DNA of 64,000 nt from Mizuhopecten yessoensis. Taxonomy: Eukaryota. A program made the position numbers. Shown here one piece after another: positions 1 through 12,000 of this stretch. Position 1 is the stretch's first letter. The number at the start of each line of letters is the position of its first letter. Where the stretch lies: NCBI RefSeq assembly GCF_002113885.1, contig NW_018405000.1:316436-380435 (forward strand), written 5' to 3'.

Positions 1-3000
1 AGCATTTACTGGGACGGAAGGTGGCTGGAGGAGCGTTTACTGGGACGGAAGGTGGCTGGAGGAGCATTTGCTGGGACGTTTCAAGGTTTCTCACGAATAG
101 TCACCTGATCAGTGGCGCTTACAGTTTGATATATGCCCCTTACAATCCTCAAATGTCCCCCACTTCAACGTCCAAAAGGTCCCCCACCATCTCCCACTTC
201 AACGTCCAAAATGTCCGCCGCCATCTCCCACTTCAACGTCCAAAATGTCCGGCACCATCTCCCACTTCAACGTCCAAAATGTCCGCCACCACCTCCCACT
301 TCAACGTCCAAAATGTCCGCCACCACCTCCCACTTCAACGTCCAAAATGTCCGCCACCACCTCCCACTTCAACGTCCAAAATGTCCGCCACCACCTCCCA
401 CTTCAACGTCCAAAATGTCCGCCACCACCTCCCACTTCAACGTCCAAAATGTCCCCCACCGTCTCCCACTTCAACGTCCAAAATGTTTCCCACCATCTCC
501 CACTTCCAACGTCCAAAAGGTCCGCCACCATCTCCCACTTCAACGTCCAAAAGGTCCCCCACCATCTCCCACTTCAACATCCAAAATGTCCCCAACCATC
601 TCCCACTTCAACGTCCAAAATGTCCCCCACCATCTCCCACTTCAACATCCAAAATGTCCCCAACGATCTCCCACTTCAACGTCCAAAAGGTCCCCCACCA
701 TCTTAGTTGTAGTTGTGTTTTATCAATAAACAATTACTAAACGAGCCAACATACTGGTACCTTTCTATCAATAAACAATTACTAAACGAGAAAACATACT
801 GGTACCTTTCTATCAATAAACAATTTCTAAACGAGACAACATACTGGTACCTTCCTATCAATAAACAATTACTAAACGAGAAAACATACTGGTACCTTTC
901 TATCAATAACCAATTACTAAACGAGACAACATACTGGTACATTTCTATCAATAAACAATTACTAAACGGGACAACATACTGGTACCTTTCTATCAACAAA
1001 CAATTACTAAACGAGACAACATACTGCTACCTTTCTATCAATAAACAATTACTAGACGAGATAACATACTGGTACCTTTCTATCAATAAACGATTACTAA
1101 ACGAGACAACATACTGGTACCATCCTATCAATAAACAATTACTAAACGAGAAAACATACTGGTACCTTTCTATCAATAAACGATTACTAAACGAGACAAC
1201 ATACTGGTACGTTTCTATCAATAAACAATTACTAAACGAGACGACATACTGGTACCTTTCTATCAATAAACAACTACTAAACGAGACAACATACTGGTAC
1301 CCTTCTATCAATAAACAATTACTAAACGAGATAACATACTGGTTCCTTTCTATCAATAAACAATTACTAAAGGAGATAACATACTGGTACCTTTCTATCA
1401 ATAACCAATTACTAAACGAGACAACATACTGGTACCATCCTATCAATAAACAATTACTAAACGAGACGACATACTGGTACCTTTCTATCAATAAACAATT
1501 ATTAAACGAGACAACATACTGGTACCTCTCTATCAATAAACAATTACTAAACGAGTCAACATACTGGTACCTTTCTATCAATAAACAATAACTAAACGAG
1601 ACAACATACTGGTACCTCTCTATCAATAAACAATTACTAAACGAGACAATATACTGGTACCTTTCTATCAATAAACAATTATTAAACGAGACAACATACT
1701 GGTACCTCTCTATCAATAAACAATTACTAAACGAGTCAACATACTGGTACCTTTCTATCAATAGACAATTACTAAACGAGACAACATACTGGTACATTTC
1801 TATCAATAAACAATTACTAAACGGGACAACATACTGGTACCTTTCTATCAACAAACAATTACTAAACGAGACAACATACTTGTACCTTTCTATCAATAAA
1901 CAATTACTAACCGAGACAACATACTGGTACCTTTCTATCCCTGGGTGAGATGAGTTCCTGTTTAAGACCGTATAGTGTTCTGACCAAGGTTTCCCCTACC
2001 GAGTCTGGTGAGGTAAACATGCTGGCATCAGGCAGGTCCTGATCTGTAATCACAAGTCAACAAATCAGGAAACTAATACAATATTATTATATAATTATTT
2101 ATCTTTTATTTTTGTATAAAGGTTGACCTTAATAACAGTATTGACATCATTCTGACTTCTTATTGTACATTCTATAGTGGACAAACAGTTGTCAATTCAT
2201 ACCAAGGTTTGATTATAGAGCTATATCACTAAATATGGTTTCCTTGCCTATAACCTTTCGACACCTACCATTAGGACTTGAGCAAGGCGACTCCCCCGGC
2301 GAAATGCTTAGTGCGTCCATGTGTGAGGGGGTGATTCTTGGGTGCTCTAACCCCGCCTCCAGACCTCCCTGGGATATGTGCGGGGTTGGCGGCTCTTTTG
2401 CATCCACATAATCATCGTCTTCTGTGTCTTCATCACCATCAAGACTGTTCAGGCTCATACTGTGGGAGGCAGAGGAGAGATACTGGTTTAGGAGACAGGA
2501 TTGGACGAGTTAGGACACAAAGGAGGGAAATGATGAGATAAGTCAGGAAACGGATTACTAAAGTTTGACTTATTTCCTACATTAATGGCAAATGTTTAAT
2601 ATTTATATTTCATCGGGGTTGTGTTTTTCCATTTTCATTTAAACTCTACAAGAAGGACAACTTTCTATGTGGTTGACAAGCTGCGGTTTGAATTTCATAT
2701 AATTCTTAAGGAATAAAAATACAAGAGATCCCAGAGGGATCTTGGCGCCCACCATCTGTTAAGTTCTTCCTTTAGTCTTTTTGTTTTCATGATCAGTCTC
2801 AAAATATAACATGTACAGCAGGGGATCAAGGGGAACCTACATATCAAATTTGAGAAAGATCCCTGAAGTTATTCCTGAGAAATAGTACTAACAAAACCTT
2901 CAATGTCGAAATAATCATAGATGGCTGTCAGTAGGCCATTTTGTTTAACTGATCAGTTTCAAAAGTAAACATGAACAAGAGGCCCATAGGGCCTGTATCG

Positions 3001-9000: not shown

Positions 9001-12000
9001 TCAAGTCTGAAGTCGTTGGTAGAGTGGTCGAGGGTGACACCGTTTATGCAGATCTGTACGCCTGTGTCCTGTGTGGGGTCTGTATTGTACGGGCTGTCTG
9101 TGGTCTCCTCGCTATCGGAGGGCGACTCCCGGGCCAACTGTGGGGACGGGCCTGCATGCTCCTCATCCTTTGACAAGTTAAGCATAGAATTGTGGTGATC
9201 TGAAAAACGTGAAGTTTAAAAACATGTCAAGATTTGAAATTGAAAAAGAGAATACTGGTTTAGAAAATATTTTAACATGGCTTTACTTTAGGGGCAGCAA
9301 CTTTTCCACAACTCTAGACCAGTTACATAGACAACATTAGGTTCCTACATGTGTATACATCAATTAACTTACCTCACACACAGGTTATATTTGGAGTTAC
9401 ATACTCAATCAATTATCTACATATCTACTCTTATCTACAACATCTCAATATAGACGATGTTTTTTTTGTCTAGCTCACTTTAAACTAGCTTTGGAAAGAT
9501 GTTATGCCAGCTGACAACACATGTATGGTTTTACGGATAACCAGCGTTCTCGGATAACCAGCGTTCTCGCTAGCCCAACAATAGGTGATCCCAGAAGGAA
9601 TCAAGGAGAAAGACAGAAAAACATGTTTGTCTTGTTTAAACCAAGTGGATATAGATATAAAAGCCAGTGTAGATCTCTGATACTGCCCTGCTAACCTCAA
9701 TCCTAACAGTACATGGTACTCAACTCCTACTATATAATTAAACATCCTGAATCTCTCGAAAACTGTTGTCATTATTTATTCAGAAGAATAGCATCTGGAA
9801 CATTTCCTTTTTATCACAGACCTCTTGTGTTGTAGCAGATGCCTCCTGTAAGATCTGACCAGGTGCCCCTTAACAGAAACTGCATGGCATGCTCTAAAAC
9901 TGTCCCCAGCCTGGTGCCCCTTTACAAATGCTGGCATGCTCTAAAACTGGCCCATGCCAGGTGCCCCTTAACAAATGCTGGCATGCTTTAAAACTGGCCC
10001 CAGCCAGGTGCCCCCTACAAATGTGTGTCAGGTATGCCCTTTTACAGACCCTAGAAAAAAGTGCCCCCATGCTCTGGCCTGTTACTGTCCTAATACATGG
10101 CCTGGTCATGTGCCCCCATACTCTGGCCCGTTACTGTCCTAATACACGGCCTGGACAAGTGCCTCCATGCTCTGGCCTGTTACTGTCGTAATACATGGCC
10201 TGGGCATGTGGCCCCATACTCGGGACTGTTACTGTCCTAATCCATGGCCTGGTCATGGGGCCCCATACTCTGGCCCGTTACTGTCCTAATAAATGGCCTG
10301 GTCATGTGGCCCCATATTCGGGCCTGTTACTGTCCCAATACATGGACAGGACATGTGCCCCTGTACTCTGGCCTGTTAATGTCCTAAAACATGGCCTGGT
10401 CATGTGGTCCCATACTCTGGCCTCGTACTGTCCCAATACATGGACAGGACATGTGCCCCCATGCTCTGGCCTGTTACTGTTCTAATACATGGCCTGGCCA
10501 TGTGCCCCCATACTTTGGCCTTTTCGTTTCCTAATACACGGCCTGGACAAGTGCCCCCAGATTCTGGCCTGTTACTGTCGTAATACATGGCCTGGACAAC
10601 TGCCCCCATACTCTGGCCCGTTACTGTCCTAATAAATGGCCTGGTCATGTGGTCCCATACTCTGGCCTCGTACTGTCCCAATACATGGCCAGGCCATGTG
10701 CCCCCATACTTTGGCCTTTTACTTTCCTAATACATGGCCAGGTCATGGGCCCCTGTACTCTGGCCTGTTAATGTCCTAAAACATGGCCAGGACATGTACC
10801 CCCGTACTCTGGCCTGTTACTGTCGTAATACATGGCCTGGACAACTGCCCCCATACTCTGGCCCGTTACTGTCCTAATAAATGGCCTGGTCATGTCCCCC
10901 CATACTCTGGCCTGTTACTGTCCTAATACATGGCCTGGTCATGTGGCCCCATACTCGGGCCTGTTACTGTCCTAATACATGGCCAGGTCATGTGCCCCTG
11001 TACTCTGGCTTGTTACTCCCCTCAAAGGCTGCCCAGGTATGTCCTAGATGCCTTGCTCAAGTCCCCCTCCCCTGCAAATGCTGGCATGCTGCTTCAGAAA
11101 TGGGCCAATTCTAATAGATGATGACCATGCCATAAGTTAATAAACCCTCCCTCAACCGACTGAAACACACATGAGCCAGTCAACTGTTCTGTATGTATAA
11201 ACAGCATATTTGAAAGATCAGAATTACAAGTTTGTCAATGAATAGTGCATGCCAAGAGTTTTCCTGTGCTATAAGCACAGATCTAGATATACCTATTGGT
11301 CTTATTACCTTAATATTGTACTGACCCATTGCCCTGACCCTGACCTTTAGTGTACAAATTATAAGATTTGATCTTTAACTCCTAGCCTTATCTTGACATT
11401 TTCGGTGCAAACTACACTGATTTTACCTTAAACTCCTTGGCCTGACCTTCACCTTAGGGTAAAAACTAGAAAAAGTCTGTAAGACATAAATGCCCTCGCT
11501 GCTATGTGAAATTAGTTTCAGTGTTCTATAAAAAGTTACAACCACTTTGATCTTGATACCCTGAAACATGCACATACACAAGGTACTACACTTAAAGTTG
11601 ATAAGTTGATTTTAATATTCATATGTTTTTTCTGTATGTTATTACCATCTCCATAACATATTGAATGAAGTTGCTAAGTGTTTAAATTGAATCAGTTGAT
11701 ATTTTAGCAACAGTGACCTTGGCCTTGACCTTGGAATCCTGAAACACAACAATGTCCGAAGTATACTCACACTTGACCTTTGCATAAAGTTTGACCAAAA
11801 TCCATGAAAGAATGGAATTGCTAAATGTTTAAATTGAATCAGTTGATGATTTTCTATTTATAGCAAGTGTGATCTTGGCCTTGACGTTAGATCCCTGAAA
11901 CACAACGATGTCCGAAGTATACTCATACTTGACCTTCGTATAAAGTTTGACCAAAATCTGTCAAAGAATGAAGTTACTTAGTGTTTACATTGAATCGGGA

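What the first reader, a model, noticed from the sequence alone, without database searches (positions are those of the whole stretch)
720..9199. Recurrent pattern: minisatellites born exactly at exon-intron donor junctions
Two of five exons have an array whose boundary lies within about 10 nt of the donor and expands only into the intron. With about 25 arrays in 64 kb this looks unlikely by chance. However, selection against expansion into coding sequence could pile array edges up at exon borders. Inference: either a splicing- or transcription-linked mutational mechanism (pausing or R-loops at donors), or a tolerated route to splice regulation and intron expansion. This is the best candidate for an undescribed system in this window.
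[Added by the scan's program, not by the reader: the finding's places include an assembly gap (unread letters, written N; its length is only estimated) at 3499 to 3616. Whether the letters on both sides are continuous or in frame is not known: test that first.]
Basis: inference. Interest (0 to 1): 0.7.

Follow-up and report, generated by a model that had tools for sequence, protein, structure and literature searches.

The report
Minisatellites that repeat a splice donor
In a scallop gene, two intronic minisatellites begin a few bases inside an exon, so each repeat copies the splice donor; this is real, but the same kind is already described in amphioxus ("mirages") and several human genes.

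Summary
The window is Yesso scallop DNA, not human. It lies inside an AKAP13-like RhoGEF gene on the minus strand, and five coding exons map exactly to the NCBI protein.

- **Array A, 8389-8867 (20 nt x 24):** starts 11 nt inside exon E3.
- **Array B, 721-1939 (45 nt x 27):** starts 9 nt inside exon E5.
- **Consequence:** the repeat unit straddles the junction, so the donor is repeated in 23 of 24 and 26 of 27 units.
- **Donor used:** the annotated protein and two orthologues fit use of the first donor only.

This is not an undescribed system. Junction-spanning minisatellites are known as "mirages" in amphioxus and from human F7, 6-16, CBS, LAMIN B2 and PDGF. In F7, only the most upstream donor is used.

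Whether donors are enriched stays open:
- P = 0.002-0.02 under a null that collapses each array to one unit.
- P = 0.61 under a plain coverage null.
- The sample is five exons in a window that is 36% arrays, chosen after the fact.

Best reading: local tandem duplications, tolerated because the first donor wins. This is a new member of a known kind. The N gap is intronic and does not bear on the finding.

The parts
8857..9199 (-). Exon E3 of the AKAP13-like RhoGEF gene (P0002 residues 436-548 plus split codons). Its last 11 nt belong to the first unit of array A.
   Evidence: Exact match to P0002, AG before and GT after. The open frame is 100% identical to the NCBI Mizuhopecten yessoensis protein.
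8389..8867 (-). Array A: 20-nt minisatellite of 24 units. Each unit is the last 11 exon nt plus the first 9 intron nt, so each carries a copy of the E3 donor.
   Evidence: TRF period 20, 24.0 copies, 86% matches. Unit listing. 23 of 24 units keep an in-register donor scoring >=6 of 9, and 10 downstream copies have a 9-mer identical to the authentic one.
8855..8856 (-). GT of the donor used by E3 (GAG|GTAAGA), the most upstream copy.
   Evidence: The protein runs from E3 straight into E4 at ...LRAK|S..., and the same holds in orthologues P0003 and P0008.
1931..2043 (-). Exon E5 (P0002 residues 614-650). Its last 9 nt belong to the first unit of array B.
   Evidence: Exact match to P0002, AG before and GT after. 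The exon end ...PRDRK is identical in P0003 and P0008.
721..1939 (-). Array B: 45-nt minisatellite of 27 full units plus a 4-nt partial unit. Each unit is the last 9 exon nt plus the first 36 intron nt, so each carries a copy of the E5 donor (AAG|GTACCA).
   Evidence: TRF period 45, 27.1 copies, 92% matches. Unit listing: GT is kept at the donor position in 26 of 27 units. 14 downstream copies have a 9-mer identical to the authentic one.
2269..2459 (-). Exon E4 (residues 550-612). No array at either junction.
13163..13259 (-). Exon E2 (residues 403-434). No array at either junction; the nearest array ends 90 nt upstream of the acceptor.
39763..39845 (-). Exon E1 (residues 376-402). No array within 1.4 kb.
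3499..3616 (.). Assembly gap (N) inside the E3-E4 intron, about 1 kb from E4 and about 4.8 kb from array A. Not filled and not looked up.
   Evidence: The protein runs unbroken across E3/E4 in P0002 and in orthologues from two other scallop genera, so no constitutive coding exon is expected in the gap.
159..703 (-). Second, unrelated 34-nt array (16 copies) in the same intron, 17 nt beyond the far end of array A's counterpart, array B. A third array (1-78) follows it. Together they form a local cluster of arrays.

Best explanation
These are junction-spanning minisatellites, the kind called 'mirages' in amphioxus.

**Origin (inferred).** A short segment straddling the exon-intron border was duplicated in tandem: 20 nt at E3 and 45 nt at E5. 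Unequal exchange or slippage then amplified it to 24 and 27 copies. This happened in a stretch of genome where minisatellites arise very often.

**What is shown.** Each unit holds the exon's last bases plus the 5' splice site, so the intron now begins with a row of near-identical pseudo-donors.

**Why they persist (inferred).** The arrays are harmless because the splicing machinery takes the most upstream donor, as shown experimentally for the human F7 intron 7 array. The mRNA is unchanged, and every added copy counts as intron. 'Expansion only into the intron' is therefore a result of first-donor choice, not a direction of growth.

**Cost of mis-splicing (shown from the sequence).** Use of a later copy would bring in an in-frame stop.

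**Donors versus acceptors (inferred).** Donors may tolerate such duplications better than acceptors, because at an acceptor the copy that keeps the exon intact is the downstream one.
For: - **Exon ends and donors:** fixed by exact matches to P0002 and by AG/GT.
- **Exon bases in the array:** the first units match later units over the exon-derived 11 and 9 nt, and the next exon base upstream does not match.
- **Donor copies kept:** 23 of 24 and 26 of 27 units.
- **Exon end is older than the arrays:** the residues at both exon ends are conserved in Ylistrum and Argopecten proteins, so the exon end was copied into the array rather than the reverse.
- **Local origin:** neither unit occurs elsewhere in the window, at <=4 of 20 and <=13 of 45 mismatches on both strands.
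- **Microhomology at array B:** it ends with a 4-nt partial unit, so a 4-nt direct repeat brackets the ancestral 45-nt unit.
- **Growth by block duplication:** higher-order patterns inside both arrays show it.
- **In-frame stops:** read-through meets a stop at once at E3 and after 7 codons at E5.
- **Birth rate:** 40 arrays cover 36.4% of the window.
- **Precedent and first-donor rule:** PMC1557585, Introduction and Discussion; PMC3087553 section 16.
Against: - Two of five donors spanned is more than a uniform birth model predicts (P 0.002-0.02). Pure chance plus tolerance may not be the whole story.
- No RNA data were available. Use of only the first donor rests on an NCBI gene model and on protein conservation.
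- Array A shows no clean microhomology at its ends.
- Copy numbers come from a gapped assembly and may be inexact.
- Orthologous introns could not be inspected, so the age of the arrays is unknown.
Confidence: 0.72

Rival explanations
1. Donor junctions are preferred birth sites for minisatellites because of a splicing- or transcription-coupled mutational process, for example stalling, R-loops or template switching where U1 binds nascent RNA.
For: - 2 of 5 donors against 0 of 5 acceptors are spanned.
- P = 0.002-0.02 under the collapsed null.
- Both junction arrays are G-rich on the sense strand, with skew +0.77 and +0.40.
- In amphioxus several mirages occur per gene, and their origin is called unclear.
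Against: - Only five exons, chosen after the fact. The plain coverage null gives P = 0.61.
- Two against zero out of five each is not a significant asymmetry.
- Array units in general are not donor-like: sense 4 of 40 against a null mean of 5.5.
- Sense G-richness across arrays is 19 against 10, not significant.
- No hairpin potential, z about +0.7.
- No strict G4 motifs in either array; two relaxed motifs in array A only.
- Amphioxus mirages occur at 3' boundaries as well.
Confidence: 0.12
2. The rows of pseudo-donors are kept by selection. They might act as U1-binding platforms or decoy sites that tune splicing, intron retention or nonsense-mediated decay of this gene.
For: - Most copies keep a good donor: 23 of 24 and 26 of 27 units. 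10 and 14 downstream copies are identical to the authentic 9-mer.
- Any use of a later copy gives a premature stop.
Against: - Donor positions are not visibly better kept than the rest of the unit. In array B the three positions before the GT each vary in 3 of 27 units, as much as anywhere.
- In array A the spread variants reflect block duplication, not independent events.
- In the studied human and amphioxus cases the copies are silent and splicing is undisturbed.
- There is no expression or conservation evidence here.
Confidence: 0.08
3. The arrays came first as ordinary intronic repeats, and a donor inside them was later recruited, so that the exon ends are array-derived.
For: The units carry donor-grade sequence, so in principle any copy could serve.
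Against: - The residues encoded by the exon ends (...LRAK/S and ...PRDRK) are conserved in two other scallop genera, so the exon ends are old.
- The first copy is the one in use, and everything upstream of it is unique exon sequence.
Confidence: 0.04
4. Assembly or annotation artefact: the arrays, or the placement of the exon ends, are wrong.
For: - The assembly has N gaps.
- One other array in the window is 100% identical over 15 copies.
- The gene model is a prediction.
Against: - Units differ by 8-14% and show ordered higher-order patterns, unlike collapsed or inflated reads.
- Exon ends agree with independent orthologous proteins.
Confidence: 0.04

Closest known systems
Amphioxus 'mirage' minisatellites (Adh3, globins BflGb6 and BflGb9, TnC, PGBD5)
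   Same: Tandem repeats whose unit spans an exon-intron boundary and repeats the splice signal. Several can occur in one gene. Unit sizes overlap (Adh3: 10-72 bp). Normal splicing is reported as undisturbed. The host is an invertebrate genome rich in minisatellites (PMC3087553 section 16; PMC3902484 passage).
   Different: The host here is a mollusc, not a cephalochordate. Both cases here are at 5' splice sites, whereas amphioxus has 5' and 3' cases. Polymorphism and somatic instability, shown for Adh3, could not be tested. The original paper (Canestro et al. 2002) was not held and is cited only through these two papers.
Human F7 intron 7 37-bp VNTR, and the 6-16, CBS IVS13, LAMIN B2 and PDGF intron 4 arrays
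   Same: The first monomer is made of the last exon bases plus the start of the intron (F7: 4 + 33 bp; here 11 + 9 and 9 + 36). The authentic donor is followed by identical pseudo-sites, up to 25 in 6-16. As a rule the most upstream site is used (PMC1557585 Introduction and Discussion).
   Different: Here there are two such arrays in one gene, 7 kb apart, with 24 and 27 copies. The donor in array A is much closer to consensus than the F7 site. There is no experimental splicing data here. In 6-16 and CBS the first two pseudo-sites are also used, which is unknown here.
Intron gain by tandem duplication of AG|GT proto-splice sites (Rogers model)
   Same: Tandem duplication creates extra splice signals from exon-border sequence (discussed in PMC3087553 section 16; listing).
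   Different: No new intron is created here. An existing intron is lengthened, and the coding sequence is unchanged.
Tandem splice sites a few bases apart (listing only: PMC2423196)
   Same: Repeated donor motifs lie next to one another.
   Different: Those lie a few nucleotides apart and give alternative isoforms. Here the copies are 20 or 45 nt apart, number in the dozens, and would all lead to premature stops.

Membership tests
Junction-spanning minisatellite ('mirage' / F7-type VNTR) | Head-to-tail array with a minisatellite-sized unit | tested here: met
   TRF: 20 nt x 24.0 copies and 45 nt x 27.1 copies. Unit listings.
Junction-spanning minisatellite ('mirage' / F7-type VNTR) | The first monomer straddles a real exon-intron boundary and holds exon bases plus the splice site | tested here: met
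   Exon ends are fixed by exact match to P0002 and by AG/GT. The arrays begin 11 and 9 nt inside E3 and E5.
Junction-spanning minisatellite ('mirage' / F7-type VNTR) | The splice-site sequence is repeated in the following monomers | tested here: met
   23 of 24 and 26 of 27 units keep the donor. 10 and 14 downstream 9-mers are identical to the authentic one.
Junction-spanning minisatellite ('mirage' / F7-type VNTR) | The mRNA uses the authentic, most upstream site, and later copies stay silent | tested here: inconclusive
   The NCBI protein model and two orthologous proteins fit first-donor use, and later copies would give stops. No transcript data were available.
Junction-spanning minisatellite ('mirage' / F7-type VNTR) | Copy-number polymorphism or instability | not testable with these tools
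   Only one assembly sequence is on hand.
Dispersed satellite or transposon-borne repeat inserted at the junction | Copies of the unit elsewhere | tested here: not met
   No copy of either unit outside its array in the 64-kb window. The units contain conserved exon sequence. The rest of the genome could not be searched.
Intron gain by tandem duplication | A new intron bounded by the duplicated AG|GT, absent from relatives | not testable with these tools
   Intron positions in other species cannot be read from proteins alone. The coding sequence across both junctions is conserved, which argues for old introns.

The most novel reading that the evidence does not exclude
In scallops, as perhaps in amphioxus, 5' splice junctions are true hot spots for minisatellite birth through a process coupled to transcription or U1 binding. 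On this reading, 'mirages' are a general, lineage-spanning route by which invertebrate introns grow and acquire rows of U1-binding pseudo-donors, some of them later used for regulation.
Probability: 0.1. Interest if true: 0.6.

Novelty: new member of a known kind. Interest (0 to 1): 0.3.

Why it matters
It adds a mollusc example, with two arrays in one gene, to a rarely discussed class known from amphioxus and a few human genes. My literature searches turned up no bivalve case and no genome-wide test of whether such arrays favour donors.

The scallop genome is very rich in tandem repeats. A related scallop paper gives 21.7% of the assembly (passage). That makes it a good place to ask that question properly, and to test how strict the first-donor rule is outside mammals. 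As a single locus, it is a curiosity rather than a discovery.

Tried and rejected
- **Pfam on six open frames of the region:** nothing above cut-off.
- **Rfam on the whole window:** no match.
- **Donor-like motifs as a general property of the arrays:** rejected. Sense 4 of 40 against a null mean of 5.5; antisense 4 of 40 against 4.1.
- **Sense-strand G-richness of arrays, as an R-loop lead:** 19 against 10 among the 29 arrays with >=3 copies, not significant.
- **Hairpin-driven slippage:** both units fold no better than shuffles on either strand.
- **G-quadruplexes:** no strict motif in either junction array. Two relaxed (loops <=12) motifs in array A only.
- **Shared 'core' k-mer among arrays:** ACAGTA/TACTGT is in 7 of 27 arrays against 1.04 expected. 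However, the top count equals the 95th percentile of the null maximum, and three of the arrays are related, so this is only a lead.
- **Dispersed copies of the two units in the window:** none.
both have one. By my arithmetic a random 20-nt and 45-nt read-through would have one about 27% and 51% of the time, so two cases say nothing.
- **The original mirage paper:** not held.
- **Mouse PAR preprint and the human spl-TR paper:** the passages read were not relevant.
- **Not possible:**
  - Searching eukaryotic DNA for orthologous introns or for a genome-wide count, because the collections on hand are bacterial, phage, plasmid or closed (metagenome contigs, viral contigs).
  - Consulting supplementary files of papers, which were closed.
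Full report
**What the window is.** The open frame at 8856-9215 on the minus strand is 100% identical, over 95% of its length, to an NCBI protein of the Yesso scallop Mizuhopecten yessoensis. That protein is named A-kinase anchor protein 13-like isoform X3 (P0002, 1979 aa). 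The frame is 85% identical to orthologues from Ylistrum balloti and Argopecten irradians. A scan of the whole representative library found 8 relatives. P0002 carries C1, RhoGEF and PH domains further downstream.

The contig is therefore scallop, not human. The spliced model was handled exon by exon. Only single open frames were sent to searches. The joined coding sequence was neither built nor searched.

**Gene model.** Local tblastn and exact 6-mer tiling of P0002 on the window gave five coding exons on the minus strand. So did frame-by-frame translation of each exon on its own.

| Exon | Coordinates | P0002 residues |
|---|---|---|
| E1 | 39845->39763 | 376-402 |
| E2 | 13259->13163 | 403-434 |
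| E3 | 9199->8857 | 436-548 |
| E4 | 2459->2269 | 550-612 |
| E5 | 2043->1931 | 614-650 |

- Each exon is preceded by AG and followed by GT.
- Residues 1-374 and those after 650 are not in the window. The whole 64 kb lies inside this gene and is intronic apart from these five exons.

**The assembly gap.** The N run at 3499-3616 lies in the E3-E4 intron, about 1 kb from E4 and about 4.8 kb from the end of array A. Continuity across it cannot be judged, and 'in frame' does not apply. The protein runs unbroken from E3 into E4 in P0002 and in the orthologues P0003 and P0008, so no constitutive coding exon is expected there. The gap was not filled or looked up, and neither junction array depends on it.

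**The observation.** TRF reports an array at 8389-8867 (period 20, 24.0 copies, 86% matches). It reports another at 721-1939 (period 45, 27.1 copies, 92% matches).

- **Array A.** Read on the gene strand, it starts at 8867, while E3 ends at 8857. The first unit is the last 11 exon bases plus the first 9 intron bases.
- **Array B.** It starts at 1939, while E5 ends at 1931. The first unit is the last 9 exon bases plus 36 intron bases.
- **Boundary.** In both, the exon-derived part of unit 1 matches the later units, and the next exon base upstream does not. The array truly contains exon sequence and the donor.
- **Array A donors.** 23 of 24 units keep an in-register donor scoring at least 6 of 9 against the consensus. 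Ten downstream copies have a 9-mer identical to the authentic GAG|GTAAGA. One unit has lost a base.
- **Array B donors.** 26 of 27 units keep GT at the donor position, and 14 downstream copies are identical to the authentic AAG|GTACCA.
- **Other junctions.** None of the other three donors, and none of the five acceptors, touches an array. The nearest case is an array ending 90 nt upstream of the E2 acceptor.

**Which came first.** The residues encoded at both exon ends are conserved in two other scallop genera...LRAK/S against ...LSAK/S and ...LRSK/S, and ...PRDRK identical in all three. The exon ends are therefore old, and their sequence was copied into the arrays, not the reverse. Neither unit occurs anywhere else in the window, so the arrays arose locally and not from a dispersed repeat.

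Array B ends with a 4-nt partial unit, meaning a 4-nt direct repeat brackets the ancestral 45-nt segment. This fits a slippage-type first duplication. Array A shows no such clean microhomology. Both arrays show block patterns that point to growth by duplication of several units at once:
- Array A has an alternating 40-nt pattern in its distal half.
- Array B has shared variant triplets 19 units apart.

**Consequences for the message.** Reading on from E3 meets a stop in the second codon. Reading on from E5 meets one after seven codons. Use of any later donor copy would therefore give a premature stop. With two cases, and by-chance expectations of about 27% and 51% (my arithmetic), this says nothing about selection for stops.

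**Is it more than chance?** Merging the TRF rows gives 40 arrays covering 23,306 nt, or 36.4% of the window. Minisatellites grow by adding copies, so the fair null collapses each array to one unit and places units uniformly.

| Arrays counted | P(>=2 of 5 donors spanned) | P(>=2 of all 10 junctions) |
|---|---|---|
| All 40 | 0.0225 | 0.086 |
| 27 with >=3 copies and period <=80 | 0.0053 | 0.022 |
| 18 with >=10 copies | 0.0021 | 0.009 |

A cruder null, that a random base is in an array 37% of the time, gives 0.61. Three things weaken the nominal excess:
- Arrays cluster. For example, three arrays lie in a row after E5.
- The window was picked because it looked odd.
- There are only five exons.

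The excess is real on paper but weak.

**Tests of a special mechanism.**
- Array units are not generally donor-like: sense 4 of 40 against 5.5 expected, antisense 4 of 40 against 4.1.
- Sense-strand G-richness is 19 against 10 among arrays with >=3 copies, which is not significant. The two junction arrays are themselves G-rich, at +0.77 and +0.40.
- The units form no hairpins on either strand.
- Strict G-quadruplex motifs are absent from both arrays, and two relaxed ones occur in array A.
- Nothing here points to a donor-specific mutational process, and nothing excludes one.

**What is known.** The kind is in print.
- **Human genes.** Borensztajn et al. 2006 (PMC1557585; Introduction and Discussion read) state that several genes hold minisatellites whose first monomer spans an exon-intron boundary, so that the donor is repeated in the intron.
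  - They name F7 intron 7 (37 bp: 4 exon + 33 intron bases), 6-16 (25 pseudo-sites), CBS intron 13, LAMIN B2 and PDGF.
  - For F7 they show that the pseudo-sites are functional, but that only the most upstream site is chosen, by 5'-to-3' scanning.
- **Amphioxus.** Ebner et al. 2010 (PMC3087553; section 16 read) describe the same thing in amphioxus globin genes.
  - They cite Canestro et al. 2002, who named such arrays 'mirages' in Adh3 (units 10-72 bp).
  - They note cases at both 5' and 3' boundaries, undisturbed splicing, length instability, an unclear origin, and a possible road to intron gain.
  - A PGBD5 paper adds TnC and PGBD5 (PMC3902484, one passage).
  - The 2002 paper itself was not held.
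- **Gaps in print.** My searches found no bivalve example and no genome-wide enrichment study.
- **Scallop background.** A paper on a related scallop gives tandem repeats as 21.7% of that assembly (passage), so a high background of arrays is expected in this group.

**Verdict.** Such arrays are a tolerated way to lengthen an intron, but they are not an undescribed system.

The most likely account has two steps. Local tandem duplications straddled the junction, in a region with a very high minisatellite birth rate. They were then kept because the first donor is the one used, so that every further copy is silent intron.

A donor-targeted mutational process or a regulatory role for the pseudo-donor rows remains possible, but nothing here supports either. 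I rate this a new member of a known kind, of modest interest.

Noticed in passing
window 1-64000: 40 merged tandem arrays cover 36.4% of the window. All lie inside introns of a single gene. Most have periods of 20-60 nt, and 18 have >=10 copies.
   Followed up: partly
window 56628-59589: One 35-nt unit forms three adjoining arrays in alternating orientation (3.9, 31.8 and 47 copies). This gives inverted arms of up to 453 nt at 88% complementarity, and one pair of arms is only 20 nt apart. The region could fold back on itself in DNA or pre-mRNA.
   Followed up: partly
window 29849-30673: A 55-nt array of 15.0 copies with 100% matches. It is either very young or an assembly artefact.
   Followed up: no
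window 1-1939: Three unrelated arrays (45, 34 and 31 nt units) follow one another in the intron after E5, separated by only 17 and 80 nt. Arrays cluster elsewhere too, for example at 9859-11017 and 43595-43963.
   Followed up: no
window 32072-33319: A complex array with a 52-nt unit has the strongest sense-strand G excess in the window (+0.78). It also has the best sense-strand donor-like site of any array unit (8 of 9), yet no known exon lies next to it. It may be a relic of a junction array or lie beside an unannotated exon.
   Followed up: no
27 arrays across the window: The 6-mer ACAGTA/TACTGT occurs in the units of 7 of 27 arrays against 1.04 expected. This could be a shared minisatellite core, but it is not significant after allowing for all 6-mers, and three of the arrays are related.
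   Followed up: partly
window 13349-13927: A 44-nt array of 13 copies ends 90 nt upstream of the E2 acceptor. It is close to, but does not include, the 3' splice site.
   Followed up: partly
window 3114-4115 and further N runs near 20.0-20.3 kb, 46.3 kb and 53.5-54.4 kb: The gap at 3499-3616 is flanked by long-period repeats (134 and 159 nt) that look like interspersed-element sequence. Three more N stretches lie in the upstream introns.
   Followed up: no
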